From IMG/VR virus record IMGVR_UViG_2713896899_000015: a DNA stretch of 15,377 nucleotides; one strand, written 5' to 3'. The translations under genes and the position numbers were made by a program. Each line of letters begins with the position of its first letter. The stretch's first letter is position 1. The notes beneath the pieces were generated by a model that worked only from the letters and a program-made list of their open reading frames with translations, did not search any database and had not been told where the DNA came from. This DNA is from a virus (lineage: Duplodnaviria; Heunggongvirae; Uroviricota; Caudoviricetes). Positions 1 through 13,817 of this stretch are shown one piece after another.

Positions 1-174
1 TGTCAGTTATCATCTTCGGTTACGGTTATCGGCAGAAGGCTCTGCCGCTGACAAGAGCTTATTTGCCTGACCAATCTACTTCACATGATAGATAACTATC
101 ATTTATAGCATTTGGCTTATTAACCTTTATTTTTCATTGCGTTACAAACAATAAGTTCGTCAAAAACAGTAAAA

Positions 175-230
175 TTAACTACACCATTAACTACACCGTT
201 CCACGAACAATATCGAACAACCACGAACAA
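175..230. repeat. Direct-repeat array: 2 x 12 bp tandem (ttaactacacc) then 3 x 10-bp phased units ccacgaacaa / tatcgaacaa / ccacgaacaa
   Basis: Read directly at 175-198 and 201-230. The 10-bp unit array recurs at 8402-8431 in the same orientation. One-helical-turn phasing suggests a protein-binding platform. Confidence 0.75.
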
Positions 231-303
231 AGATCAACACGCTTTAATCGTTATCGTTTTCCGGCTATCCGTTATCAAGCTGGTTGATGTGGTGCCATGT
301 TTC

Positions 304-326
304 CCACCAATGGTGGAAAAGCCCAC
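304..326. repeat. 23-bp element ccaccaatggtggaaaagcccac (copy 1), contains inverted repeat CCACC-aat-GGTGG
   Basis: Exact 23/23 match to 1413-1435. Confidence 0.8.
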
Positions 327-455
327 CAGCGCAACGCATTTTTTTAATTTCGCGGGTATAAAAATTTGACGGGGCGGATAGTTCCATAAGTAATGGATTG
401 CAGGAATTTCGATCCCCCTCCTGAATGCAATTTTTCGTATATATATACAAAACAG

Positions 456-612
456 TGCGGGTTATGCGGGTTAGCGGGTTATCTTCGCGTGCTAAGTATT
501 TTTTATACTTTAATATCAATACGTTAAAAAATTACGCGTTTAAATATTAGCCAAAACGTAACCCGCAAGACATTCAAAATAACCCGCAAACACCCCCCAA
601 ATAACCCGCAAA
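456..612. repeat. Iteron cluster A (GCGGGTTAT-type), inverted copy of the origin-type cluster; candidate second ori or P4 crr-like site
   Basis: Three contiguous forward iterons tgcgggttat/gcgggtta/gcgggttat at 456-482, an AT-rich core at 483-558, then three reverse iterons taacccgca at 559-567, 579-588 and 601-610 spaced about 21 bp apart. Mirror image of cluster 9771-9919. Confidence 0.6.
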
Positions 613-1030
613 CGCATCAAGAAAGTGGGTCCAGTGATGCCATCGAACGGCTGAATCGGGTAACGTTCTGTTGCCGGGTTGTTGTTTGCGGGTCAGCAAT
701 ACTGACGCGCAAAGTTAGCCGTACGTGGCGCTGCGTCCACCAGCTACGCCGGAATGGGGTATTCCGTTTCAATGGAACAGGTATGACAAACATGATCGCA
801 CCTTCTCCCGAAAACGGGTTTTCCTGTTTCGGGAAAATGGACACATAAGCGGCGCGGCGATTTTCACCATTCAGAATCTGGAGGGTGAGTTTTCCAGTTT
901 TCCCCAATGGGGGATTCTGGAACAATCAACAGGTTACTCCTTACCAGCAAAAAAGCACATCAACTGTAACGGAAATCGTTATGGTTGCTGGTGGGCCAAA
1001 TCATCATTACGGTGATACAGCCATGTAGAC

Positions 1031-1193
1031 GTTCCGGTCTCCTCAAATTGAGTTTCTCGAAAATATCAGCGGGTTAGCGATTAAGCTGGCGAGTAATTAA
1101 ACTGCGAAAATTTCGTAGTTTGTGACTATCTGAAAGATAGTCGGTTGTTCCGGTCTCAGCCGTTGGCTGTTTCCGAAAATATCAGCAGGTTAG
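1031..1193. repeat. Two imperfect ~47-bp direct repeats (1031-1077 and 1147-1193) flanking a perfect palindrome gactatct-gaa-agatagtc (1124-1142)
   Basis: Both units start gttccggtctc and end tttc(t/c)cgaaaatatcagc(g/a)ggttag. The palindrome has 8-bp arms and a 3-nt loop. No coding potential. Confidence 0.7.
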
Positions 1194-1280
1194 GCCAAAG
1201 CCCGAAAAAGTGCTTTGTAAAAACTGAATACCGTAACTTAAACTTACGGTAATCGTTCTGCCTCGGTGCTCGTCTCTTCC

Positions 1281-1435
1281 GTGGTCATTTCGACCATGCA
1301 CCACACGAAAAGGGGGAGTGTTTATCACCTCCCCTTCGTGGTGATTTCCACCATGCAGCCATCGCACCGCCACGCAAAAGGGATTTACCACTACCAGCTA
1401 TATCCCTCAAATCCACCAATGGTGGAAAAGCCCAC
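1281..1435. repeat. Composite repeat region: direct repeats gtggtcatttcgaccatgca (1281-1300) and gtggtgatttccaccatgca (1338-1357) flanking an imperfect ~15-bp-arm palindrome (1302-1342), plus copy 2 of the 23-bp element (1413-1435)
   Basis: Read directly. Repeated GGTG/CACC half-sites throughout. Candidate cis site (packaging cos, or regulator binding). Confidence 0.65.
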
Positions 1436-1543
1436 AGCACGGCCGCATAAAACCATTACGATGACTCAGGACGCAAAACCACGTTTACGTTGTTTTGCAC
1501 TGAACCAGAATGCTGCTCGTCTTTGTCTCGATGTCCGTACGTA

Positions 1544-1837
1544 TTACGTACGCAGCCGCTCCGGTTTTTTCCACTGGTAAGTCTTTTTCTCGCTCTCCCG
1601 ATACATCTCCACGCGGCGACGATATGACAACAACTCCAGAACTCTGATCCGTATGTCGCGCATATCCACGCCGTTAATCTCGATACCGTCACGGCGCATC
1701 ACCTCAGCCACCACACGCGCGTAATTTTCGGCTATCACGCTGTCCGGCTGCGTGGCCTCCTGTTTGTCTGCTGTCTGGCTGGCTCCGGTAACACGGCGGA
1801 TTATTTTTAGTAGTTCGGTTTCGCTCATTCTCGTCAT
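1544..1837 (-). CDS. Hypothetical protein (97 aa) translationally coupled to the end of terL
   Basis: ATG at 1835-1837 overlaps the terL stop (ATGA). Last gene of the packaging operon. No recognisable motif. Stop codon sits in the centre of palindrome cgtacgta-t-tacgtacg (1536-1552). Confidence 0.5.
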   Translation of the reverse strand: MTRMSETELLKIIRRVTGASQTADKQEATQPDSVIAENYARVVAEVMRRDGIEINGVDMRDIRIRVLELLSYRRRVEMYRESEKKTYQWKKPERLRT

Positions 1838-3495
1838 ACCCCATCAAACGCCGCAAGCCGCTCTTTGTGGCTGTCGCTCATATCGAATGCAAAGTCCTCG
1901 TGCTCTGCCTGGAATGTGCCAAACGCCATCAGCGCCGCAACGCTCGGGTCTATCTTGTTGGATGATTTTTTCTTGTTCGGCTTGATATTGGCGTTCGCGT
2001 CACTCTGCATCACAACATTACTCATTGACCAGGCCAGCACCGGATCACCACGATGAACAATCACCTTCCGGTTAACAAAAACTTCGAACGATTTCGCCGC
2101 CGGACTGAAACGAAGGTATGTTTGCGGGAACGGCTCCACCTCAAATCCTGCCCCCTGTAGCTGCGTTCTCAGGTGCGTGGCGTTCCATGTATCGAAACCC
2201 ACCAGCCTGATATTGAAATTCTCTGCATCCGCCATGATGTCATCACGGATACGGTCATAATCAATGCAGTCACCCGGTGTTGTGCGTATCCAGCCCGCCT
2301 TTGCCCACTGGCGATAGATGGCGCGGTTTTTATTGGCAGGGTTCTGTAGCTGAAATTCCGGCAGATAGTGACGGGAAACCAGCATAATCTTTTTACCGAC
2401 CGGAAAGGCATAGCACACGCTGGAAATATCGCTGGTTGATGATAAGTCCAGCCCCGCGTAGCACTCCTGCCCGTATAAATCCGCCTCCGCGAACGTTCCG
2501 GCGCACTCCGCCCATGCACCGTTACCCATCCACGGCGTAGCCCCCTGACACCAGATATTGAATCGCTTGGTGAGCATTTCCACCCACTGCGACGGAATAC
2601 CCCGCGCTTTCTGGATGGTTGAGGCCAGTTTTTCACGATCGACGGAAACATCGATATTGGGATTCGCCTTTATCCACATCGCCGGATCGTCAACCTCGCT
2701 TTCATCATCCAGCTCGTAAATCAGCACGAACATGGATTCGTTCACCTCTTCACCATCCAGTATCTGGCAGCAATAGTCGTAGTGTTGTTTACAGGCTGAA
2801 ACAACGTTGCTCCCCGATGTGGTGATGGCAAATAACAGCCCCTCCGGGCGCGCCCCCATTCCCAGCTCAAGCGCGGAATAAACCCCGTTGTCAGGATGCA
2901 GGTGATATTCATCCACAATGGCGAGACTCGGGTTTGTCCCCTCAATGGTTGCCGCTTTTGCTGCCAGTGGCTTTAACAGGCTGTTGGTTTTCGGGTGTAT
3001 CACCTTGTGCGCCTGAATATTTACCCGCTTTCGTAACGGTCGGGATAAAAGGCACATCTGACGCGCATCATCAAACACGATCCGCGCCTGATCACGACTC
3101 ACGGCGGCGGTGTAAATATCCTGCTGCCCGTTTTCCATAACCAGAAACCAGTTAGCCAGGATAGCGGCGACCGTGGATTTGGCATTTTTTCGCGGTACTT
3201 CAATGAATGCGCTGGTGTATTTGCGCCGTCCGGTGGCCTTAACCTTAAAGCCCAGGATGCACGCAAAGGCGAACTGCTGCCACGGCTCCAGTTCAATGGG
3301 GCTACCGCGCATTGCACCTTTTACGTGCGGGCACACCCTGGAAAAGGCAATAAACCGCTCCACGACCTCCGGATCGAACGTGTAAAGGGGGTTTTCAAGG
3401 TCAGAAAAATACCGTTTAACGGCCTGTTTCAGTCGTTTACAGGCCGTAATTTTGCCGTTTTTTACGCCTTCTGCGTACTCATGCCAGGCGGTCAA
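1834..3495 (-). CDS. terL: Terminase large subunit (Terminase_1-type ATPase/nuclease), 553 aa
   Basis: Size and N-terminal ATPase region with P-loop-like KNAKST and a DEYH Walker-B-like motif. Follows terS with a 17-nt overlap. Apparent TTG start at 3493-3495 preceded by AGAGGA (Shine-Dalgarno). Confidence 0.88.
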   Translation of the reverse strand: MTAWHEYAEGVKNGKITACKRLKQAVKRYFSDLENPLYTFDPEVVERFIAFSRVCPHVKGAMRGSPIELEPWQQFAFACILGFKVKATGRRKYTSAFIEVPRKNAKSTVAAILANWFLVMENGQQDIYTAAVSRDQARIVFDDARQMCLLSRPLRKRVNIQAHKVIHPKTNSLLKPLAAKAATIEGTNPSLAIVDEYHLHPDNGVYSALELGMGARPEGLLFAITTSGSNVVSACKQHYDYCCQILDGEEVNESMFVLIYELDDESEVDDPAMWIKANPNIDVSVDREKLASTIQKARGIPSQWVEMLTKRFNIWCQGATPWMGNGAWAECAGTFAEADLYGQECYAGLDLSSTSDISSVCYAFPVGKKIMLVSRHYLPEFQLQNPANKNRAIYRQWAKAGWIRTTPGDCIDYDRIRDDIMADAENFNIRLVGFDTWNATHLRTQLQGAGFEVEPFPQTYLRFSPAAKSFEVFVNRKVIVHRGDPVLAWSMSNVVMQSDANANIKPNKKKSSNKIDPSVAALMAFGTFQAEHEDFAFDMSDSHKERLAAFDGV

Positions 3496-3835
3496 GCTCG
3501 TCCTCTTCCTCTGTTTCCGGTGGATTTCTGCGTCGGCTTACCGGGTCAAAACCCAGCAAAGAAGCCATTTTGATCATTATTCTTTCTGCGTCAGCCTTTG
3601 CGCTCAGGGCGGGGTTTCTGCTCTCGCTGCCCTGACTGTTAACAATGCTGAAGCCGCGCGTCGCAAGGTCTTCGACGGCTTTGCGGTATATGGAGTAGTT
3701 AACGCAATACAGTTCCAGATTGCTCCAGTCGGCGGGGGTAAGGTCTTCCCGCCCGGAAAGCTGGCGCGATTTTTCCTTCCACTGCCTGACCGCGATTTCA
3801 TCCAGGTAAGCGGGGGCTTTTGGTGGTCTTGCCAT
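3479..3835 (-). CDS. terS: Terminase small subunit, P27 family (118 aa from MARPPKAP...)
   Basis: N-terminus MARPPKAPAYL, internal LELYC..Y, and C-terminal NP....A.....K...LGFDP.SR then acidic tail, as in phage P27-family TerS. The ORF-track 5' extension to 3976 is judged non-coding. ATG at 3833-3835. Confidence 0.8.
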   Translation of the reverse strand: MARPPKAPAYLDEIAVRQWKEKSRQLSGREDLTPADWSNLELYCVNYSIYRKAVEDLATRGFSIVNSQGSESRNPALSAKADAERIMIKMASLLGFDPVSRRRNPPETEEEDELDRLA

Positions 3836-3954
3836 GTTCTTTTTTCGCCCAATTATTTTCAAAAAAATTCCCGTGCACAAAAATTTGAGGAGGCGGTCGG
3901 TGTCCGGCAGGGGCGGTTTCGTCCTGAAAACCTCCCCCACCCCCTCTGACGGCC

Positions 3955-4140
3955 TCACCAGCGATTGCGAAAACATTCCATGACCTCGCGGTCACGGTCG
4001 GTTAATCGCTTCGCTGTGGTGCGTTCTGTGCGCTCTGTCCTGTTGGCTTTGTGCCCTGTCTCCTGTGTCTTCCATAAGTCACGCTGCCTTATCAGTCCAC
4101 GTATCAGCCTGTTTTGCTCCTGTTCAGTCATCATCGCCAT
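3955..4140 (-). CDS. Possible small basic protein (61 aa) between HNH and terS; uncertain
   Basis: ATG at 4138-4140 overlaps the last 15 nt of the HNH gene in another frame. Weak Shine-Dalgarno, Arg/Thr/Glu-rich. Could instead be non-coding (this region is a cos-site candidate). Confidence 0.3.
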   Translation of the reverse strand: MAMMTEQEQNRLIRGLIRQRDLWKTQETGHKANRTERTERTTAKRLTDRDREVMECFRNRW

Positions 4141-4564
4141 ACATCCAGTCGTTACGATGTGCCGCCCGTTCTTCCTGCTCGCGATACATGCCCGCCTTAC
4201 GGTTCGCTTTCGTGGCTGGATCTTCCCGTGTCGTCTTACGGTTGTGGCACGTCTGGCACAATGCCTGGTGGTTCCACTCAGGCCAGAAGAGAACATCACC
4301 GCCGCCATTGATGGGAATGATGTGATCCACCACAAGAGCTGGCGTATAAATACCCTTAGCCAGACAACGCACGCATAACGGATTTTTTTTCAGGTACATG
4401 GCGCGGTATTTGTCCCACAGTCGGGAATACCCACGTGCGCGGCGGTGTCCCCGTCTGGCATCCTCTGCACGCCATGCAGCCCGCCTGTGCTCTTCACACT
4501 TGCCGGACTTCACGCGCTTATTACAGCCCGGCTCAGTGCATCGCCTTAATGGTTGCCATGGCAT
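4124..4564 (-). CDS. HNH endonuclease (terminase-associated), 146 aa
   Basis: Cys-rich N-terminus (C..C..C), then VDHIIP...WNHQALCQTCHNRKT, an HNH motif. Sits immediately upstream of terS-terL as in HNH-dependent cos packaging modules. TGATG coupling to the upstream gene. Confidence 0.9.
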   Translation of the reverse strand: MPWQPLRRCTEPGCNKRVKSGKCEEHRRAAWRAEDARRGHRRARGYSRLWDKYRAMYLKKNPLCVRCLAKGIYTPALVVDHIIPINGGGDVLFWPEWNHQALCQTCHNRKTTREDPATKANRKAGMYREQEERAAHRNDWMYGDDD

Positions 4565-4860
4565 CAGTACACCCCCACATCACGATAAACCGACCAGAGC
4601 GCGGAAATCGTCAGGGGAATTTCTTTTGTATCGGTATCGCCAAGCGTTGTCCGGTACTCGTACAGTTGCGAGATGTACATCAGGCAACCAATTTTTATTG
4701 CAGGGGTAAATTCCAGGCCGTCATCAAAACGCCTGCCAATATGCTTCTGGCATACCTCCAGCGCCGCGCTTATGTATGCCTGAATCAGTGTGTCTTCTGT
4801 GTTACCATCTATGCGGCAGTGAAGTTTGGCCTCTTCCAGGGTTATTTTTTCTGCTGTCAT
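4564..4860 (-). CDS. Head-tail connector protein, gp6-like (98 aa)
   Basis: N-terminus ITLEEAKLHCRIDGNTEDTLIQAYISAALEVCQ is characteristic of the gp6-like connector family. ATGA overlap with the upstream gene. Confidence 0.7.
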   Translation of the reverse strand: MTAEKITLEEAKLHCRIDGNTEDTLIQAYISAALEVCQKHIGRRFDDGLEFTPAIKIGCLMYISQLYEYRTTLGDTDTKEIPLTISALWSVYRDVGVY

Positions 4861-5195: not shown

Positions 5196-6415
5196 TCGTC
5201 ACCGCCCTTACTGTTCTTGCTGATTGTCACTTCCTGCTTCCATGCCTGGCTGAACTCGTCGCCACCTTCACGCGGCGGCATTCCCTCACGCTCACGGGCT
5301 TCGTTCGGATTCATGATCCCGTTCTTAATTCCTTTCTCATACGTGGCGTAACGTTCGGTAGGTGTGGCGCGCAGTAAATCGGCTGAATCAAACTCAACCA
5401 GATAACGGGTACCAGGTACGGGAGAAGCCACCAGCAAAGCAGCCTTGATTTGCTGTTCGAAGTTCGCCAGCCATGGGCGCATTGTCATGGTCAGAAACGC
5501 GCGGCTTGCCTCGCTGAAATTGCTGTAGGTGCTATTGCTGTATTCCTGCAGAAAAATAGGCGATACGTTGAACATCCGGGCGATGTCTTCAATGGAGAAG
5601 CGACGGGAGGCCAGCCATTCCGCATCCTGGTTACTCATTCCCAGTTGCTTGTAATCCATGCCCCCTTCAAGGATTGGCGTTTTTCCGGCATTTTTCGCCC
5701 CCTTGTAGCGTTCCAGAGCATCCAATGCCTGTTTACCTTTCACGCCGTCCAGCCATTCGCCTGACGTGATAATCCCTGCCGCCATCATGCCATCTTTCAT
5801 AATGCTGGCTCCGTGGCGCTGTTGAGCAAGGCCAAGCCCAAGTGCCTCACGGCAAATCGTGACAGGGGAGCGCCCCAGAAAGCCATCATCCGAGGCATAG
5901 CGGAGATGCAGAACTTCTTCCTGTAAATACGTGCGCACCGTTCCTGTATAGGGTTCGGTGATGGTATAGCGGTATTTGTGTGCGCCTGTGCGTTCCGGTA
6001 CAACACAACCCGGTGCATAAGGATGAAGTGATTTGGGCTGCCCGTCCCGCCCCCACTCAATAACCGCATAGGCGTTACCGTTCAGCAGGCAGTGACGCAT
6101 CATTGTGCGTTTAAACTGGTAAGGTGTCTGGCACGAATTAGGCTGCTCATTCAGCAGAATATCTACCGGATGACTGTCCAGCCATTCCCGCGCCTCCCTG
6201 CCCTTGTCATTACGTACCAGATACAGATAACAAGGCATCGTGGCCACCGCCTCAGCGATGACAGAAACCGCGTTCATCACTGCAGGCAATGATTCAGCCG
6301 TTCCGGCAGAAACATATTCTCCGGATCCGGTATTCGGTACACCGGACAGCGCCAGAAAATCATCAATGGACAGGTTACGCAGATCGCTTTTTTTACGACT
6401 AAAAGGCCACCACAT
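5192..6415 (-). CDS. Portal protein, HK97 family (407 aa from MWWPF...)
   Basis: Length and composition typical of HK97-type portals. ATG at 6413-6415 lies 1 nt after the protease stop. The ORF-track extension to 6505 uses a TTG and overlaps the protease gene, so is judged unlikely. Confidence 0.85.
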   Translation of the reverse strand: MWWPFSRKKSDLRNLSIDDFLALSGVPNTGSGEYVSAGTAESLPAVMNAVSVIAEAVATMPCYLYLVRNDKGREAREWLDSHPVDILLNEQPNSCQTPYQFKRTMMRHCLLNGNAYAVIEWGRDGQPKSLHPYAPGCVVPERTGAHKYRYTITEPYTGTVRTYLQEEVLHLRYASDDGFLGRSPVTICREALGLGLAQQRHGASIMKDGMMAAGIITSGEWLDGVKGKQALDALERYKGAKNAGKTPILEGGMDYKQLGMSNQDAEWLASRRFSIEDIARMFNVSPIFLQEYSNSTYSNFSEASRAFLTMTMRPWLANFEQQIKAALLVASPVPGTRYLVEFDSADLLRATPTERYATYEKGIKNGIMNPNEAREREGMPPREGGDEFSQAWKQEVTISKNSKGGDE

Positions 6416-8476: not shown

Positions 8477-8725
8477 TTATTGTTTCACTGGATCCCGCAT
8501 TCTGCGTCTTATTTTCCACAGATATTCGATCATCGCTTCCACCTGCTCACGGTTGGTTGCGAAAATTTCCCCGGTCAGTGAGCTGCGCAGAAAATCATGA
8601 TGATCCACAACAAACAACGCATCGGAAGAAAGCAGACGGCGATATTTTTTTGCTGTCGTGGTTTCCAGATCATCAAAACCATGAAACTTTTTATGTTGCT
8701 GAACTTCTTCAAATGTCACTGGCAT
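8477..8725 (-). CDS. Hypothetical protein (82 aa)
   Basis: ATG at 8723-8725 with a GGGGG Shine-Dalgarno 5 nt upstream. Overlaps the ProQ/FinO gene stop by 10 nt. No recognisable motif. Confidence 0.55.
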   Translation of the reverse strand: MPVTFEEVQQHKKFHGFDDLETTTAKKYRRLLSSDALFVVDHHDFLRSSLTGEIFATNREQVEAMIEYLWKIRRRMRDPVKQ

Positions 8726-9246
8726 GTATCCCCCTTTGCTGCCCGGCGCTGGCGCTTGTGCTTCTCATTCAGCGCCATCAGCCGCGTTTCTGCCTCCTGC
8801 TGTTCCTGTGGTGTCACTTCCCCACATGGCTGGCCTTTCAGGTCGTAGCGTACCCCACCAGCTATTAAGGCGCGGTAATAGCGCGGAGACTGCGCATAGG
8901 ATGCCAGCGTCGCACGTAATGCCCCCGGCCCGAATGTCAGCCCCCTGGCGGCGATATCCTGCATCAGGTCGTCGAATATCCCCACCTTAAGCGGCTTCGG
9001 TGCTTCCCGGCTGAATAATTCTGGCCACAATTCAATAAGGCGGTTAACGCGTCTGCGGTTTTTGCGCTGGCGTTTGGTCATATGCCGCCACGCTGTCGCC
9101 CCTGTGGGTTTCTGCTGTGCGTTCTGATTGCCGGGTATCACTTTATGCGCCGATGTGGTTTTATCCTGCTGCTGTGCCGCCTGCGGTATTTTCTGCGGCG
9201 TGCCGTAAATGCCTTTCGGTTTTCGGTTAATGGTCATCTTTGTCAT
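8716..9246 (-). CDS. ProQ/FinO-domain RNA-binding protein (176 aa; alternative start at 9237)
   Basis: C-terminal half KPLKVGIFDDL...LRATLASYAQSPRYYRALIAGGVRYDLKGQPCGEV aligns by eye with E. coli ProQ (RPLKIGIFQDL...LRSALRLYTSSWRYL...RVDLDGNPCGEL). Basic, low-complexity N-terminus. Confidence 0.85.
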   Translation of the reverse strand: MTKMTINRKPKGIYGTPQKIPQAAQQQDKTTSAHKVIPGNQNAQQKPTGATAWRHMTKRQRKNRRRVNRLIELWPELFSREAPKPLKVGIFDDLMQDIAARGLTFGPGALRATLASYAQSPRYYRALIAGGVRYDLKGQPCGEVTPQEQQEAETRLMALNEKHKRQRRAAKGDTCQ

Positions 9247-9944: not shown

Positions 9945-12080
9945 TTAATCTTCTTCGCTTTCTGGCTGGAACATCAGCACGTAAAAAACATGCTGCTTCC
10001 CCCCAATTTTGCCGAGCGCCTTTTTCTTGTAACGGCGATCGTTACCCGCTTCCAGCATTCCGGCAGCACTCAACGCGCGGGCAAAGTGAGACGGATTAAA
10101 TCCCTGTGCTATCTCACCCTCAAATACATGCGGGAATGTGTAAAAACGGAACTCGTCATCTTCGTTTCTGATACTCCCCTTTCTGTATCCGGCAAGCTCT
10201 TTAATCGGTAAATCACGCTCGTCAGAGTTGGGCCAGGGAAGGTATCTGCTGAATCCGAACGACGCTAAAAAAGCCTCTGCCTGTTCAACCATCTGTTTAA
10301 ACTCCCTGTTACCCGTGCCGAACTCCTTCACCCAGGCATTAAAATTATGCTGTATGGCATCGCGGCATTCCTGCTCATCCCAGCCAGTAACATGACCTGA
10401 AAGCACAAGCGCGGCCTCCAGTATGGCAAATCGCTCCCCCACACGGTGAACCTGTTCGCCGTAGCTCTCCGGTATCAGGTTGCGCCACCGCTCACGGCAT
10501 GTCCTTACCGTGTCCTTTGCCTCCTGCTGGTGTTCTGCCAGCCATTTAACCCACTCACGACCCGCTGCCCCGTGATTTTCTGTCCAGGCATCCTTTAACG
10601 CGTCTGCGTGCGCCTTTCCGGTGCTGTATTCGTGAAATTGTGTGGCTTTTTCCATCGGCACGTTAAGCAGACGGACAAGCTGCCCCGCTTTAATTTTTAT
10701 CCCTTCCGTTTTGAGGAATGTTTCAACGTCCATTTCTCCGGTACTGATTGCCACCGTGCGCCAGTGTTTGATCTCCCTGTTGCCGCCGTCCTTCGCCCCC
10801 TGTAATTTCCCCGAACCGTTAAACAGCGTATAAGCCGACGTGGACACTTCCCGCGCGTTTCCGGCCTGACCTATTTCATCCAGGGGTAACAGCCCGTCAT
10901 TGTGCGCCTCTGCCTCGTTGGCGATGCCTAACGCTGTACCGTACCAGGTCAGCCGTTGCGCGTCCGGCTCTCCCCATAAACTGGATGCGATGTTCTGTGT
11001 GGTGGTTTTCCCTGCCGATGACTGTTCGAAAAGATGTACCCCGAAGCCGTCAGCACCCACCAGCCCGATTAATGGTGCGGATAATGATACCGCCACACCC
11101 AGCATCATGGACGGATTACCACCAGCCAACCGCGCAACGGTATCGCGCCAGCCCTCCGCCGTTCCTGCCACGGAATAACCATTAACAGCGGCAGTTTTTC
11201 CGGTAAACAGGACTGGCTTTTCGCAATCACCAATGACCGAACCGTCCGGCATGATGTACGCGCCAAAATGCCAGCCCGTTGTTGTGCTTAACTGCCATTC
11301 CTCATGGTTTCCGCTTAACTGCATCCAGTCAGCCAGGATAGCCCTGTATTTACCGTTGGTTGTCACATTCAGTCCGTGGTCTTTCAGCAGCCGCCAGCCG
11401 TCACGGTCGCCAATGCCCCCACACGGGATCGCCATTGTGATGACTTCATGGTTTGCTGGTTTTTTCCAGCGCATCACGCGGTAATGCTCTTTGCCGATTG
11501 TCCCCGTTCCCAGTAGTTCAAGCGGGGAACATAACCACGTCTCAGGCCGGATAATTTCGCCTGACTGCTTATCCACTTTTGGCGTTACCCAGAAAACACC
11601 ATCGGCACGGCTTTCAACGCGGGGCTTTAATTCATCATCACCCGGGCTTGTGGTGGTTTTTTTCTTTACCGGAAGTTTAATTACCAGATCTGCAGAAAGA
11701 TTCTGACGCTCAACGTTCAGATAGCGCCGCCAGTTCTCGCATTTCTGACCGTGCATTCCTTCAGGGTAAAAATTCGCATCCTGAATATCTGCCGCCGCCA
11801 GCTTCTGACCGATCTTTTTGGTCTCCACTAAATCCAGTTCTCCGGCCTGGTACAGCCTTACGCGTTTTTTCCCATCCGGAACAATTTTCAGCGCATCAAG
11901 TTCGGCAAGCTGATTTGGCCCAAGCCACACAGGCGGCACATCATCGCCAGATGCGGGGCCGTCCTGCTCCTGCCACTGTTTTGCATGTGCCCACGCATCA
12001 CTACCCGCGAAAATAATTACCTCTGTGTCTTTGTGTTTTATTCCGCGTGGTTGTTTTTTTACGTTCGGTGCCAGTTTCAT
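9945..12080 (-). CDS. Replication initiator, primase/helicase-type (PICI Pri-Rep / P4 alpha-like), 711 aa
   Basis: Large multidomain protein with a P-loop (SSAGKTT) in the central region. Directly upstream of the iteron origin. ATG at 12078-12080 overlaps the preceding gene stop (ATGA). Domain family not verified by search. Confidence 0.75.
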   Translation of the reverse strand: MKLAPNVKKQPRGIKHKDTEVIIFAGSDAWAHAKQWQEQDGPASGDDVPPVWLGPNQLAELDALKIVPDGKKRVRLYQAGELDLVETKKIGQKLAAADIQDANFYPEGMHGQKCENWRRYLNVERQNLSADLVIKLPVKKKTTTSPGDDELKPRVESRADGVFWVTPKVDKQSGEIIRPETWLCSPLELLGTGTIGKEHYRVMRWKKPANHEVITMAIPCGGIGDRDGWRLLKDHGLNVTTNGKYRAILADWMQLSGNHEEWQLSTTTGWHFGAYIMPDGSVIGDCEKPVLFTGKTAAVNGYSVAGTAEGWRDTVARLAGGNPSMMLGVAVSLSAPLIGLVGADGFGVHLFEQSSAGKTTTQNIASSLWGEPDAQRLTWYGTALGIANEAEAHNDGLLPLDEIGQAGNAREVSTSAYTLFNGSGKLQGAKDGGNREIKHWRTVAISTGEMDVETFLKTEGIKIKAGQLVRLLNVPMEKATQFHEYSTGKAHADALKDAWTENHGAAGREWVKWLAEHQQEAKDTVRTCRERWRNLIPESYGEQVHRVGERFAILEAALVLSGHVTGWDEQECRDAIQHNFNAWVKEFGTGNREFKQMVEQAEAFLASFGFSRYLPWPNSDERDLPIKELAGYRKGSIRNEDDEFRFYTFPHVFEGEIAQGFNPSHFARALSAAGMLEAGNDRRYKKKALGKIGGKQHVFYVLMFQPESEED

Positions 12081-12364
12081 TTCTTACCCCCTGCGACCAG
12101 CATTTCACGGATTTTGCGGATATAGCTTGCTGCACGTTTCTGATTTACGGCTTTACGATGGCCCACCAGCGTGAAATCACGCCGGAATTGATAAACAGGC
12201 ATCACGCAGTCATATTCGTAACCTTCACGGCGGTAGGTGATGCGCCGTTCTGCCACGCCTTTAATCGTTACCATGCCGCCATATTTATCGCGGTAAATAT
12301 CGCCGTTCATAAATTCAGGACGAGCGGGGCCGCTGGCAGTAACGCCAGAATTTTTATTTTTCAT
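12077..12364 (-). CDS. Hypothetical protein (95 aa)
   Basis: ATG at 12362-12364, GGAG upstream, ATGA coupling to the primase gene. Basic. No recognisable motif. Confidence 0.6.
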   Translation of the reverse strand: MKNKNSGVTASGPARPEFMNGDIYRDKYGGMVTIKGVAERRITYRREGYEYDCVMPVYQFRRDFTLVGHRKAVNQKRAASYIRKIREMLVAGGKK

Positions 12365-12369
12365 GTTTT

Positions 12370-12597
12370 TTATTCTCCGGTGTGCTGCGCTTTATTATTC
12401 TCGTGAATTGCCATCACTGTATTTAATTCATTAATTACTGGCGTTAATAATGTGTGCACGGCAGAAAACATCATGGGATATGATTCATCGCCATTTTCCT
12501 GCACTTCCATTAACTTAAGTAATAATGCCTCCATTTCCTTTGCGCGGATTAATGCGTTTTCAGAATGAACAAGAACATCAAAGGGTATTTTATGCAT
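12370..12597 (-). CDS. Hypothetical protein (75 aa)
   Basis: ATG at 12595-12597 overlaps the upstream gene stop (ATGCATAA). Helical-looking, acidic. No recognisable motif. Confidence 0.6.
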   Translation of the reverse strand: MHKIPFDVLVHSENALIRAKEMEALLLKLMEVQENGDESYPMMFSAVHTLLTPVINELNTVMAIHENNKAQHTGE

Positions 12598-12793
12598 GAC
12601 TCACCCCCTGACGAATACGGGCGGCGAATACCATCACGCAGCCAGCCGGGGATTGCTGGCGTGCTTCCTGTTCGCTGGTGGCCTCAATGGTAATCACGCG
12701 CGGTTGTGCCGTGCTCAGGGCGATAAAACGCCAGATATATTTATTCAGGTTGTGCGAGTCCCGCCCTTGCGGGTGTGTGGTATGATTTAACAT
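12590..12793 (-). CDS. Hypothetical protein (67 aa), first gene of the leftward replication operon
   Basis: ATG at 12791-12793 preceded by a strong GAGGT Shine-Dalgarno. The 306-aa ORF in the track is this frame extended upstream through the divergent promoter and RHH gene, which is judged spurious. Confidence 0.55.
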   Translation of the reverse strand: MLNHTTHPQGRDSHNLNKYIWRFIALSTAQPRVITIEATSEQEARQQSPAGCVMVFAARIRQGVSHA

Positions 12794-12992
12794 AGCTACC
12801 TCGATACGCTTTCTATCGTTGGTGGTTAGAAGCCCTGCGAGTGATAACGACACTTGCGGGGCTTTGCATTTATGCACCTTGACAACCTCAAGGTGTGGCC
12901 CACTATATTCTTTAGGTGTGGCCCACGTCAAGAGTTTTATTTGTGCTTTTTCTGTGTATACTGTCCCCCACCAATCCAACAGAGGAATAGAA
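12794..12992. promoter_or_regulatory. Divergent promoter/operator region between the replication operon (-) and the RHH gene (+)
   Basis: Consensus -35 TTGACA at 12879-12884 with candidate -10 TATATT at 12904-12909 (19-bp spacer). Two perfect 13-bp direct repeats aggtgtggcccac at 12891-12903 and 12914-12926 overlap the -10 and start region. TATACT at 12957-12962. GAGG Shine-Dalgarno before the RHH ATG. Confidence 0.5.
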
Positions 12993-13172
12993 ATGGCAAC
13001 GGGTACAACAAACGCAAAATCACAAGCTCTAAAGGCTCGTGTACCACACGAAATAGTAAACGCCATGGAATCAGTGAAAGAATCAGGCGAAAGCACATCA
13101 CAATTCATCATTGCGTCAATGCAAGGCGAGATCAAACGCCGCCAGCGACGCAAAGCCAAGGAGTCAGAATAA
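12993..13172 (+). CDS. Ribbon-helix-helix (CopG/Arc/MetJ-like) DNA-binding protein, 59 aa; candidate island repressor/regulator
   Basis: ATG at 12993 with GAGGAATAGAA Shine-Dalgarno. Sequence KARVPHEIVNAMESVKESGESTSQFIIASMQGEI fits the RHH pattern (beta-strand RVP, helix, G.S.S..I, helix). Confidence 0.65.
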   Translation: MATGTTNAKSQALKARVPHEIVNAMESVKESGESTSQFIIASMQGEIKRRQRRKAKESE

Positions 13173-13229
13173 TCACTATCAGCGCCGTGGTGTGAGTAAC
13201 TACGGCGCATTGCTATGCAGGTGCTTACC

Positions 13230-13409
13230 ATGAACGATAAAGAGTTAAAAAAAACACCACCACAAACACTGAAAGGACAGCGCAAAAAGATAGCGCATGA
13301 GCATGAATCAGAAAGATTCGCCCCCTGTTCTTTTGCTCTTGAGAAATTCCTTAAGGAGCACAAGAAAAAGCTATCATTGCAAACCAGGGAACGAACCGAA
13401 TCTGACTGA
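13230..13409 (+). CDS. Hypothetical small Lys-rich protein (59 aa), co-transcribed with the RHH gene
   Basis: ATG at 13230 with AGGTG 6 nt upstream. Followed by an intrinsic terminator. A stem gcgccgt/acggcgc (13182-13208) lies between the two genes. No recognisable motif. Confidence 0.4.
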   Translation: MNDKELKKTPPQTLKGQRKKIAHEHESERFAPCSFALEKFLKEHKKKLSLQTRERTESD

Positions 13410-13473
13410 TCACATTGCCCACCAGCCAGCAAATCGCTATGATGTTCGGGCTTATGTTTAGTGTTTTCCCATT

Positions 13474-13501
13474 GGCGACCGCCCCCGGTCGCCTTTGTTT
13501 T
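13474..13501 (+). terminator. Rho-independent terminator of the RHH operon
   Basis: Stem ggcgaccg (13474-13481), loop cccc, stem cggtcgcc (13486-13493), then tttgtttt. There is no U-tract on the other strand, so it is unidirectional. Confidence 0.7.
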
Positions 13502-13520
13502 ATGTGTCATATACTCCCCT

Positions 13521-13730
13521 TTACGCTGCCTTGCCTGAATTAATGCGATCCCGGCTTTTAACCCATTCCATAACCTCGGACAGCAGCCAACCTACAGAAC
13601 GACCGCCCAGATTAAGGCGTGACGGAAATCGCCCTTTTTTCTCCAGTTCGTAGCGTGTAGTGCGACACACTCCAGTTAACTTACGACATTCATCCTCACG
13701 GATTACGCGATCTTCATTTATTTCACGCAT
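13521..13730 (-). CDS. alpA: AlpA-family (MerR/excisionase-like) transcriptional regulator, 69 aa
   Basis: LTGVCRTTRYELEKKGRFPSRLNLGGRSVGWLLSEVMEWVKSR matches the AlpA/Xis helix-turn-helix pattern (..T.Y.....G.FP....LG.R.VGW...EV.EW...R). ATG at 13728-13730 with AGGT Shine-Dalgarno. The track's longer ORF starts at a GTG (13817) with no Shine-Dalgarno. Confidence 0.8.
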   Translation of the reverse strand: MREINEDRVIREDECRKLTGVCRTTRYELEKKGRFPSRLNLGGRSVGWLLSEVMEWVKSRDRINSGKAA

Positions 13731-13817
13731 ACAAAAACCTACATAAAAATTACGTATATAAACTTTTCTCTTAGCTGTAGATATATGAGATCGGATATTA
13801 CTTAGATTCTTTTTCAC

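What the first reader, a model, noticed from the sequence alone, without database searches (positions are those of the whole stretch)
12077..12793. Three small unknown proteins at the head of the replication operon
Genes of 67, 75 and 95 aa, translationally coupled and just upstream of the primase, occupy the position where satellites often encode helper-sensing, anti-repressor or phage-interference functions. I recognise no motif in any of them.
Basis: inference. Interest (0 to 1): 0.5.

Follow-up and report, generated by a model that had tools for sequence, protein, structure and literature searches.

The report
Small genes heading a satellite's replication operon
The three small genes ahead of the primase of this E. 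coli-type phage satellite are real, but two belong to known families (a homologue of phage P1's cell-division inhibitor Icd, and the DNA-binding regulator RgdR), so the finding is largely ordinary; the surprise is that the first gene sits at the end of a 306-codon frame kept open across genera.

Summary
The three minus-strand ORFs exist as described: 67, 75 and 95 aa, with overlapping or abutting stops and starts, directly upstream of a DUF927 primase-helicase. The window is a capsid-forming PICI-type satellite.

Two of the three are not unknown.
- ORF1 is an Icd-like protein. It matches NCBIfam NF033153 over the segment that in P1 Icd is the FtsZ-binding core.
- ORF3 is an RgdR/DUF4222 protein, 63% identical to the E. 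coli O157 RgdR-type protein. RgdR is reported in all E. coli PICIs analysed. Here it always abuts the replicase gene.
- ORF2 is a narrow, satellite-restricted acidic two-helix hairpin with no informative fold match.

The module occurs in about 35% of complete E. coli genomes.

The most likely role is an early-operon set made together with the replicase on island induction. Icd-like would arrest host division. RgdR would act as a DNA-binding accessory or regulator. ORF2 would be a partner protein. No function was tested.

Outside the stated coordinates, ORF1's frame stays open for 248-374 codons in 18 of 20 assessable related loci. It runs antisense through a ylcI gene whose GTG-N5-CAC sites co-vary with the YlcI protein.

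Verdict: a new member of a known kind, of modest interest.

The parts
12590..12793 (-). ORF1, 67 aa, pI 10: Icd-like protein (short form)
   Evidence: NF033153 at 1.5e-19, 69.8 bits against a cut-off of 25. PHROG 6196 at 2e-45. 31% identity to P1 Icd, E 2e-6. The internal ATG with a GAGGT motif is conserved in 17 of 18 loci. Codon-position changes 30/30/52.
12590..13510 (-). Extended frame of ORF1: 306 codons from ATG 13510 (AGGGGAG 3 nt upstream), starting 11 nt after the alpA stop. It runs antisense through orf64, ylcI and the intergenic control region.
   Evidence: The frame is open for 248-374 codons in 18 of 20 assessable related loci, while the other frames carry 11-26 stops. An SD-like motif plus ATG lies at the 5' end in most loci. 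NCBI records name the long form 'Icd-like protein'; 2186 clusters match it. The extension has no Pfam or PHROG match, is poorly conserved, and has 4-5% Cys.
12370..12597 (-). ORF2, 75 aa, pI 5.2: satellite-restricted two-helix hairpin protein, function unknown
   Evidence: PHROG 2196 (unknown function) at 8e-10. 69 clusters, nearly all E. coli or Shigella. Only 14 hits among 1.84 billion representative proteins. AlphaFold2 pLDDT 85.5, helices 6-30 and 39-72. No Foldseek PDB hit below E 0.7. The family sits directly upstream of DUF4222 or of the primase in 11 other loci.
12077..12364 (-). ORF3, 95 aa, pI 10.2: RgdR-family (DUF4222) protein, translationally coupled to the replicase
   Evidence: Pfam PF13973 at 1.1e-24, 86.2 bits against 27. 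63% identity to the O157 RgdR-type protein, E 4e-41. The model shows a disordered N-terminus, a 5-strand SH3/KOW-like barrel (residues 22-69, pLDDT about 90) and a basic C-terminal helix. There is a 4-nt overlap with the replicase start in the window and 12 related loci.
9945..12080 (-). Primase-helicase (DUF927 type), 711 aa; the downstream partner of the three ORFs
   Evidence: Pfam DUF927 at 1e-45. PHROG 1139 'DNA primase' at 1e-178.
12891..12926 (.). Two copies of AGGTGTGGCCCAC (12891-12903 and 12914-12926), each holding a GTG-N5-CAC palindrome; candidate operators
   Evidence: The sites sit at fixed positions -100/-102 and -77 from the ylcI ATG in nearly all of the 16 loci examined (14 of 16), and their centres co-vary with the YlcI N-terminal segment.
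12902..12931 (-). Sigma-70-like promoter TTGACG-18-TATAGT pointing at ORF1, overlapped by both candidate operators
   Evidence: 10 of 12 matches, but the number of such sites in the region is no higher than in shuffles, so this is a consensus match only.
12829..12865 (.). 15-bp hairpin in the leader between the promoter region and ORF1's ATG
   Evidence: Folding of 12815-12880 on the + strand gives -29.8 kcal/mol, z = -5.15. It is followed by TTTGCATTTAT on the + strand. Its function is untested.
12993..13172 (+). ylcI/ynfO-family gene, 59 aa, divergent from ORF1 and nested antisense in the long frame; candidate repressor
   Evidence: NF041551 at 7.8e-19. Its third codon positions coincide with those of the long frame (coordinates). 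Operator covariation.
13215..13409 (+). Second small + strand ORF (64 aa; probable start at the Met at 13230) downstream of ylcI
   Evidence: PHROG 21027 at 3.7e-14. Conserved with in-frame indels in 10 loci.
13474..13503 (+). Terminator-like hairpin plus T-run ending the ylcI-orf64 transcript
   Evidence: Folding z = -4.24. Its T-run explains the conserved 'KTKA' at the start of the long frame.
13521..13817 (-). alpA (AlpA-family activator); the probable true start is ATG 13730 (69 aa)
   Evidence: Pfam Phage_AlpA at 2.2e-16, covering residues 36-86 of the 98-aa ORF. Homologues are annotated at 62-74 aa.

Best explanation
The three ORFs are the conserved front end of the early (replication) operon of an E. 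coli-type PICI satellite, here a capsid-forming one. They are made together with the primase-helicase when the island is switched on.

- ORF1 is a homologue of phage P1 Icd. By homology it would bind FtsZ and stop the host from dividing while the island replicates and is packaged. As in P1, its translation probably also feeds expression of the genes coupled behind it.
- ORF3 is RgdR, a small basic protein with an SH3/KOW-like barrel and a basic helix. It binds DNA weakly. Because its gene overlaps the replicase start in every relative, whatever the replicase type, it most likely acts with the replicase or on island DNA. Its known effects on LEE and motility would then be side effects of a DNA-binding protein.
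- ORF2 is an acidic helical hairpin lying between two basic proteins. It most likely acts by binding one of them or a host or helper protein.

Shown here: the family memberships, the gene coupling, the conserved gene order and how widespread the module is.
Inferred: FtsZ targeting by ORF1, a replication role for RgdR, and any role for ORF2.
For: Satellite context. The window carries int, alpA, primase-helicase, SSB, major capsid, protease, portal, head closure and adaptor proteins, HNH, TerS and TerL, all on one strand.

ORF1.
- It matches NF033153 at 1.5e-19.
- P1 Icd matches the same model at residues 12-51. That is exactly the FtsZ-binding, growth-inhibiting core defined experimentally (PMC11897509).
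- The pairwise alignment shares the IWRF, TE.EAR and P.G.C motifs.
- P1 icd also overlaps the next gene, ant1, by 4 nt, and its record says it is 'apparently required for expression of ant'.

ORF3.
- It matches DUF4222 at 1e-24 and is 63% identical to the O157 protein carrying the RGD motif.
- RefSeq names one homologue in the sample 'prophage regulator RgdR'.
- It shows low-affinity, non-specific DNA binding (PMC3378721).
- All 48 sampled E. coli rows that span the junction pair DUF4222 with a replicase. The replicase is of four annotation types: primase family, DUF5906, DUF927 and RepA helicase.
- The 4-nt overlap with the replicase start is seen in the window and 12 related loci.

ORF2. The family recurs directly upstream of DUF4222, or of the primase where DUF4222 is missing, in 11 other loci from four genera.

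Expression. AlpA activates transcription of the downstream PICI genes, and alpA is induced by the helper phage (PMC6092414).
Against: - No function was tested.
- ORF1 is only 31% identical to P1 Icd, and P1 Icd's action is species-specific. FtsZ binding by ORF1 is therefore an extrapolation.
- RgdR's only published phenotypes concern LEE, motility and Congo-red binding, not replication.
- The window's ORF3 has NGD where the O157 protein has RGD. An R20N change lowered type III secretion activation.
- The ORF3 fold matches are not statistically significant (E 0.02-0.3).
- ORF2 is absent from several relatives, which carry unrelated 85-106 aa genes in its place. It is therefore dispensable for the core cycle.
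- The long frame upstream of ORF1 shows that expression of this operon is more complicated than the simple model.
Confidence: 0.6

Rival explanations
1. The module is mainly a phage-interference (abortive-infection or superinfection-exclusion) device. The Icd-like protein is a toxic effector, and the linked small genes and the primase act as sensor or regulator. It is triggered by accessory proteins of an infecting phage.
For: Silas et al. (bioRxiv 10.1101/2023.04.06.535777) report an ECOR61 'prophage' system. [quoted passage not shown] The window encodes exactly such a long Icd-like frame next to a primase. PICIs are known to interfere with helper phages (PMC6092414).
Against: - PADLOC finds nothing in any of the genes.
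- Transposon hits in the 'extension' could act through polarity on the operon or by disrupting ylcI or the promoter.
- The module's conserved coupling to the replicase fits the satellite's own life cycle at least as well.
- The two readings are not mutually exclusive.
Confidence: 0.3
2. ORF1's main role is in cis, as a translated leader. Ribosomes reading the long alpA-proximal frame carry RNA polymerase through the antisense ylcI region and its operators and prevent Rho-dependent termination, so that ORF2, rgdR and the primase gene are expressed. The peptide itself matters little.
For: - The frame is open for 248-374 codons in 18 of 20 assessable loci from several genera.
- The upstream 240 codons are poorly conserved. 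In the intergenic segment, changes are spread evenly over codon positions (76/59/68, against 30/30/52 in the Icd domain).
- An SD-like motif plus ATG lies next to the end of alpA in most loci.
- The composition of the extension looks non-coding, with 4-5% Cys.
- P1 gives a precedent: icd translation is needed for ant expression (record note). That C4 RNA causes Rho-dependent termination by blocking icd translation is my own recollection of Biere, Citron and Schuster 1992 and was not checked here.
Against: - The Icd domain itself is under purifying selection and has its own conserved ribosome-binding site and ATG, so a protein product is clearly selected for.
- There is no direct evidence of translation of the long frame.
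- Part of the stop-codon avoidance could come from the two + strand genes that share third codon positions with it.
Confidence: 0.3
3. ORF1 and ORF2 form a toxin-antidote pair. The basic Icd-like division inhibitor would be neutralised by the acidic helical-hairpin protein encoded by the overlapping next gene.
For: The stop and start overlap by 8 nt. The charges are opposite, pI 10.0 against 5.2. Icd homologues are toxic when expressed.
Against: - In relatives the ORF2 family is adjacent to DUF4222 or the primase, not to Icd, and one to four unrelated genes can lie between it and Icd.
- Many loci have Icd-like without the ORF2 family.
- No toxin-antitoxin or defence model matches.
- Fold matches to the immunity protein Tsi2 are non-significant (E above 2).
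Confidence: 0.1
4. One or more of the three proteins senses the helper phage or acts as an anti-repressor that induces the helper or the island.
For: The genes lie in the regulatory-proximal part of the island. He et al. note that the gene downstream of alpA is a variable region between otherwise identical cf-PICIs (bioRxiv 10.1101/2025.02.11.637232). In relatives the slot between Icd-like and the ORF2 family holds one to four variable small genes, counted from the annotated loci that carry an ORF2-family gene.
Against: - There is no similarity to Ant, Bro, Rha or other anti-repressor families.
- In E. coli PICIs, sensing is attributed to helper-dependent activation of alpA.
- ORF1 and ORF3 are conserved core genes, not variable ones.
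Confidence: 0.1

Closest known systems
Phage P1 Icd (immI operon: c4 - icd - ant1/2)
   Same: Both match NCBIfam model NF033153, over the region that in P1 is the FtsZ-binding core, residues 12-51. Both are small and basic, are the first cistron of an operon, and overlap the next gene.
   Different: Identity is only 31%. No C4-like RNA was found in the window (Rfam). Here the downstream genes are a replicase module rather than an anti-repressor. The frame is extended upstream by about 240 codons and is antisense to another gene, which is not so in P1.
RgdR (ECs1581) of E. coli O157:H7 O-island 51 / CP-933C
   Same: Both are DUF4222 proteins. ORF3 is 63% identical over 92 residues. Both are 95-99 aa with pI about 10, and both sit directly upstream of the island replicase.
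   Different: The window has NGD where O157 has RGD at residues 20-22, and the C-terminal third is divergent. Whether this variant affects LEE or motility is unknown. The published work did not address a role in the satellite life cycle.
Gram-negative PICIs and capsid-forming PICIs (EcCICFT073, EcCIEDL933, EcCIGN02175)
   Same: The order int - alpA - small genes - pri/rep - packaging module is the same. The window carries its own capsid, portal, protease, connector, HNH and terminase genes, and no tail genes were found in it. AlpA is the activator.
   Different: The published descriptions read here do not assign roles to the Icd-like or ORF2 genes, and they state that a repressor is unclear. 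The data here point to a YlcI-type repressor candidate with its own operators.
ECOR61 prophage-encoded growth-arrest system (Silas et al. preprint)
   Same: [quoted passage not shown]
   Different: The sequences could not be compared, and the trigger and phenotype are untested for this island.

Membership tests
Icd-like proteins (NCBIfam NF033153) | Score above the curated cut-off of the family model | tested here: met
   69.8 bits against a cut-off of 25, E 1.5e-19, ORF1 residues 19-62. The 306-aa form scores 66.2 bits at residues 258-301.
Icd-like proteins (NCBIfam NF033153) | Homology covers the functional core of the founding member (P1 Icd residues 12-51, FtsZ binding) | tested here: met
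   P1 Icd matches the same model at residues 12-51. The core is defined in PMC11897509. The direct alignment has E 2e-6.
Icd-like proteins (NCBIfam NF033153) | Binds FtsZ and blocks cell division | not testable with these tools
   Needs expression, microscopy and interaction assays.
RgdR / DUF4222 (Pfam PF13973) | Score above the Pfam gathering threshold | tested here: met
   86.2 bits against 27, E 1.1e-24, residues 16-67.
RgdR / DUF4222 (Pfam PF13973) | Full-length similarity to the characterised O157 protein and the same genomic position | tested here: met
   63% identity, E 4e-41, to L004:2316-2615, which carries the RGD motif and lies upstream of the replicase in an O157 island next to roxA and pepT.
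RgdR / DUF4222 (Pfam PF13973) | RGD tripeptide at residues 20-22, which gave the protein its name | tested here: not met
   The window has N20-G21-D22. Many relatives also have NGD or PGD. The motif is not invariant in the family, so this bears on the LEE-activating phenotype rather than on family membership.
RgdR / DUF4222 (Pfam PF13973) | Activates LEE1 and represses motility | not testable with these tools
   This is an experimental phenotype (PMC3378721).
Capsid-forming PICI | int, alpA and pri/rep, plus own capsid, portal, protease, connectors, HNH, TerS and TerL, without tail genes | tested here: met
   No tail genes were found in the 15.4-kb window. The integrase is cut by the window end.
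Capsid-forming PICI | Helper-dependent induction, att sites and transfer using helper tails | not testable with these tools
   The window lacks both island ends, and no tRNA gene was found.
P4-like satellites | psu, delta and sid capsid-hijacking genes, and an alpha-type primase | tested here: not met
   None of these appears among the PHROG or Pfam assignments of the window's genes.
Known anti-phage defence or toxin-antitoxin systems (PADLOC-DB) | Any model match in ORF1-3, the long frame, the primase, YlcI or the 176-aa ORF at 8716-9246 | tested here: not met
   0 families at E up to 0.1.
C4 antisense-RNA control (P1/P7 type) | A C4-family RNA upstream of icd | tested here: not met
   The Rfam scan of the whole window at E up to 1 gave no match.

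The most novel reading that the evidence does not exclude
Gram-negative PICIs may carry a repressor-based immunity switch after all. YlcI would be a small DNA-binding repressor; a ribbon-helix-helix fold is guessed from its sequence pattern only. It would bind paired GTG-N5-CAC operators whose centres differ between 'immunity types'. It would shut the promoter of the Icd-ORF2-RgdR-primase operon. Induction would work by AlpA-driven transcription that is kept going by translation of a roughly 300-codon, sequence-indifferent frame. That frame runs antisense through ylcI and its operators and ends in the Icd domain. It would flip the switch by transcriptional and antisense interference.
Probability: 0.25. 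Interest if true: 0.7.

Novelty: new member of a known kind. Interest (0 to 1): 0.4.

Why it matters
The module sits in roughly a third of complete E. coli genomes and heads the operon that starts satellite replication, yet none of its three products has a demonstrated role in the satellite life cycle.
- If ORF1 does target FtsZ, PICIs stall host division as phages do.
- If RgdR works with the replicase, its reported effects on EHEC virulence genes are a by-product of a replication or DNA-binding factor carried by a very common mobile element.
- The conserved long frame and the YlcI/operator pairs would give a testable model for how Gram-negative PICIs are kept silent and then switched on. A 2018 study (PMC6092414) describes this as unclear.

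Tried and rejected
- Rfam scan for a C4-like or other RNA: nothing.
- PADLOC defence models: nothing.
- PDB sequence searches for ORF1, ORF2, ORF3 and YlcI: nothing useful.
- Foldseek of the ORF2 model against the PDB: only generic helical hairpins, E 0.7 or higher (EncB, Tsi2, Rop). Rejected as uninformative.
- Foldseek of the ORF3 model: KOW, PWWP and Tudor barrels at E 0.02-0.3. Used only to name the fold class.
- DNA and protein searches of the phage collection. There was no DNA match. ORF1 hits only vB_KppS-Ant, which is itself a 16.5-kb cf-PICI-like record. ORF3 gives one weak hit (E 6e-4) beside the O gene of phage PhiR29, but in a frame that is neither annotated gene. Rejected.
- The genome-contig scan with ORF1 returned only 11 loci.
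- Hydrophobic segments in the long extension (Kyte-Doolittle 1.6-2.2) were considered as membrane helices. Rejected, because they are the antisense of charged parts of ylcI and orf64 and so are expected from complementary coding.
- Antisense ORFs 12047-12406 and 12596-12790 (+): no convincing family support.
- The left end of the window, ORFs 8477-8725 and 3955-4335, and a tRNA search: no Pfam hits and no tRNA.
Full report
OBSERVATION

The three ORFs lie on the minus strand at 12590-12793 (67 aa), 12370-12597 (75 aa) and 12077-12364 (95 aa). The 711-aa gene at 9945-12080 follows them.

Their junctions are those of a coupled operon:
- ORF1's stop overlaps ORF2's start by 8 nt (ATGCATAA).
- ORF2's stop lies 5 nt before ORF3's ATG, with a GGAGA motif inside the end of ORF2.
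- ORF3's stop overlaps the primase start by 4 nt (ATGA).

All three are coding by independent criteria:
- ORF1 and ORF3 have family-model matches.
- The ORF2 family and DUF4222 both show more change at third codon positions: 78/54/109 and 102/102/168 minimum changes at positions 1/2/3.

CONTEXT

The window is a phage satellite of the capsid-forming PICI kind. On one strand it carries, in order:
- a tyrosine integrase (cut by the window end),
- AlpA,
- the three ORFs,
- a DUF927 primase-helicase,
- SSB,
- a 176-aa unknown protein,
- major capsid protein, prohead protease and portal,
- head-closure and adaptor proteins,
- HNH endonuclease, TerS and TerL.

No tail genes were found. A small YlcI/YnfO-family gene is transcribed divergently from ORF1.

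The stretch 11900-13300 matches 1804 of 5426 complete E. coli genomes, at best 90.8% identity. A 306-aa protein identical to the window's long frame is on record from E. coli. The source is therefore E. coli or a very close relative.

IDENTITY OF THE THREE PROTEINS

ORF1 is an Icd-like protein.
- It matches NF033153 at 69.8 bits against a cut-off of 25.
- I fetched phage P1 and found that P1 Icd matches the same model at residues 12-51. That is exactly the 40-residue core shown to bind FtsZ and to inhibit E. coli growth and division (PMC11897509).
- The direct alignment is 31% identical over 52 residues (E 2e-6). It shares the motifs IWRF, TE.EAR and P.G.C.

ORF3 is an RgdR-family protein.
- It matches Pfam DUF4222 at 86.2 bits against 27.
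- It is 63% identical (E 4e-41) to the 99-aa protein of an O157 island next to roxA and pepT, which carries the eponymous RGD motif.
- RefSeq names one homologue in the sample 'prophage regulator RgdR'.
- RgdR activates LEE1, represses motility and binds DNA weakly and non-specifically (PMC3378721).
- The window's copy has NGD in place of RGD.
- The AlphaFold2 model has a disordered N-terminus, a five-strand barrel at residues 22-69 (pLDDT about 90) and a basic C-terminal helix.
- The nearest PDB folds are Spt5 KOW, PWWP/Tudor and the TnsB barrel. Their E-values are 0.02-0.3, so only the fold class can be named.

ORF2 is the one true unknown.
- Its only match is PHROG 2196, of unknown function.
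- It has 69 clusters, nearly all from E. coli or Shigella.
- An exhaustive profile search of 1.84 billion representative proteins found 14 hits.
- The confident model (pLDDT 85.5) is a two-helix hairpin. It has no significant structural neighbour.
- It is acidic (pI 5.2), and it lies between two basic proteins of pI 10.0 and 10.2.

COMPARATIVE ANATOMY

I compared 21 related loci: 11 from species genomes, 9 from E. coli genomes and 1 'phage' record. The order is constant: alpA, Icd-like, a variable slot, ORF2 family, DUF4222, replicase.
- DUF4222 overlaps the replicase start by 4 nt in the window and 12 related loci.
- In a spread sample of the 1919 E. coli genomes that match the junction, all 48 rows spanning it pair DUF4222 with a replicase. 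The replicases are annotated as primase family, DUF5906, DUF927 or RepA helicase.
- These replicases share their first 120-160 residues.
- The ORF2 family lies immediately upstream of DUF4222. Where DUF4222 is missing it lies immediately upstream of the primase. This holds in 11 other loci, including Enterobacter, Intestinirhabdus and Citrobacter.
- Between Icd-like and the ORF2 family, relatives carry further unrelated small genes: one to four in the annotated loci that have an ORF2-family gene, in one case including a second Icd-like copy. The window itself has none there.
- Some relatives replace ORF2 with unrelated genes of 85-106 aa.

ORF1 and ORF3 are therefore core genes. ORF2 is semi-conserved. 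The truly variable accessory slot is empty in this window.

BEYOND THE STATED COORDINATES

ORF1's frame continues upstream to an ATG at 13510. That ATG is preceded by AGGGGAG and lies 11 nt after the alpA stop, which gives 306 codons.

The frame is open for 248-374 codons in 18 of 20 assessable related loci. These include Cedecea, Rahnella, Enterobacter, Superficieibacter and Rosenbergiella. The other two frames of that strand carry 11-26 stops, and shuffled sequences never stay open.

Most loci have an SD-like motif and an ATG at the 5' end of the frame. NCBI records widely call the long form 'Icd-like protein'; 2186 clusters match it.

Yet the upstream 240 codons do not look like a normal protein:
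- They are poorly conserved.
- They have no Pfam or PHROG match.
- They contain 4-5% cysteine.
- In the 66-codon intergenic segment, changes are spread evenly over codon positions (76/59/68, against 30/30/52 in the Icd domain).

The frame runs antisense through three things:
- ylcI, with which it shares third codon positions;
- a second conserved + strand ORF (13215-13409; PHROG 21027);
- the divergent control region.

At the same time, the short form's ATG and GAGG-type motif are conserved in 17 of 18 frames. Both a short product and translation of the long frame have sequence support. Openness of the long frame, rather than its peptide sequence, appears to be what is selected.

THE CONTROL REGION

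- Two copies of AGGTGTGGCCCAC lie at 12891-12903 and 12914-12926. Each holds a GTG-N5-CAC palindrome.
- A promoter-like site, TTGACG-18-TATAGT, points at ORF1 and overlaps both copies. It is a consensus match only.
- A 15-bp hairpin lies in the leader.

Across 16 loci, such palindromes sit at -100/-102 and -77 from the ylcI ATG. Their central bases change together with residues 10-17 of YlcI:

| Loci | YlcI residues 10-17 | Palindrome |
|---|---|---|
| window, L001, L016 | SQALKARV | GTGTGGCCCAC |
| L002, L003, L019, L020 | SQTVAARV | GTGTT(A/G)AACAC |
| L017 | SKKLEARV | GTGTCAGCCAC |
| L018 (E. coli), L013 (Superficieibacter) | SQSVTARI | GTGTAAGACAC |

The pattern is what one expects of a repressor and its operators with several immunity types. 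YlcI binding was not tested. Its ribbon-helix-helix character is my reading of the sequence pattern and is not a database result.

MECHANISM

Best supported (confidence about 0.6): the three proteins are made with the replicase when the island is induced.
- AlpA is the helper-dependent activator of the downstream genes.
- The Icd-like product stops host division, by homology with P1 Icd.
- RgdR acts on DNA or with the replicase, inferred from its invariant coupling to the replicase gene and its DNA binding.
- ORF2 is a binding partner of unknown target.

Rivals:
[quoted passage not shown] This is compatible with the main reading.
- A cis role of ORF1 as a translated leader, as in P1, where icd is 'apparently required for expression of ant'.
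- An Icd/ORF2 toxin-antidote pair. This is weakened because ORF2 travels with rgdR and the primase, not with Icd.

COMPARISON AND NOVELTY

- Family membership of ORF1 (Icd-like) and ORF3 (DUF4222/RgdR) is met on the sequence criteria. The functional criteria could not be tested, and the RGD motif is absent.
- The island fits cf-PICI and does not fit P4-like satellites.
- No C4-type RNA and no known defence model is present.
- The finding itself is a new member of a known kind. Satellites are already noted to carry Icd-like genes (PMC13612085) and RgdR. [quoted passage not shown]
- What I did not find described in the papers I read is the cross-genus conservation of the long open frame antisense to ylcI, and the YlcI/operator covariation.

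SCORES

Interest is 0.4. The most novel reading not excluded is a YlcI immunity switch flipped by translation-coupled read-through from alpA. I give it a probability of about 0.25 and an interest of 0.7 if true.

Noticed in passing
window 12590-13510 (-): ORF1's reading frame is open for 306 codons from an SD plus ATG just after alpA. The equivalent frame is open for 248-374 codons in 18 of 20 assessable related loci across several genera, although the upstream 240 codons are poorly conserved and Cys-rich and evolve like non-coding DNA in the intergenic part.
   Followed up: partly
window 12891-12926, and ylcI at 12993-13172 (+): Paired GTG-N5-CAC palindromes sit at fixed distances (-100/-102 and -77) from the ylcI start. 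In 16 loci their central bases co-vary with residues 10-17 of YlcI. An E. coli locus and a Superficieibacter locus share both the protein segment and the operator. This suggests that YlcI is a repressor with immunity types.
   Followed up: partly
window 13215-13409 (+) and 13474-13503 (+): A second conserved small + strand ORF lies downstream of ylcI (64 aa, core EHESERFAPCSFALEKFLKE, PHROG 21027). It is followed by a terminator-like hairpin. RefSeq annotates this ORF in only one of the E. coli loci looked at (L018). The whole ylcI transcript would be antisense to the long frame.
   Followed up: partly
window 12829-12865: A strong 15-bp hairpin (z = -5.15 on the + strand) lies in the leader between the control region and ORF1's ATG, followed on the + strand by TTTGCATTTAT. 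Relatives with different sequence also show an inverted repeat there (for example L017 3237-3269).
   Followed up: no
window 9945-12080 (-), residues 1-160 of the primase: The first 120-160 residues are shared (61-82% identity) with replicases of other architectures in related islands: primase family of about 600 aa and RepA helicase of 466 aa. The conserved unit is therefore RgdR plus this N-terminal domain. The domain has no Pfam match.
   Followed up: partly
L003 3049-3510; L004 2847-3513; L016 2334-3003; L020 2539-3003: In related islands, the slot between Icd-like and the ORF2 family holds one to four extra small genes, in one case a second Icd-like copy of 153 aa. It is an accessory hotspot that is empty in this window.
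   Followed up: no
L021 (LR881103.1, 'Escherichia phage vB_KppS-Ant', 16.5 kb): This record, deposited as a phage from an induced prophage, has the gene content of a cf-PICI: int, alpA-like regulator, a 324-aa Icd-like frame, an ORF2-family gene, primase, capsid, portal and terminase. It also carries one gene labelled tape measure protein.
   Followed up: no
window 13521-13817 (-): The listed alpA ORF starts at a GTG (98 aa), but the AlpA domain begins at residue 36 and homologues are 62-74 aa. ATG 13730 (69 aa) is the more likely start.
   Followed up: no
window 1-1830 and 8716-9246: The lower-GC left end beyond TerL (GC 0.41-0.47 in the first 1.5 kb) contains several 84-104 aa ORFs with no Pfam match. 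The 176-aa ORF between SSB and the capsid gene matches only PHROGs of unknown function. These are possible accessory cargo.
   Followed up: partly
L010 (Shigella flexneri) 3342-4592 and 5866-6168: In the one island whose integrase is split into two ORFs, the long Icd frame is also broken (100 aa). This fits decay of a no-longer-mobile element.
   Followed up: no
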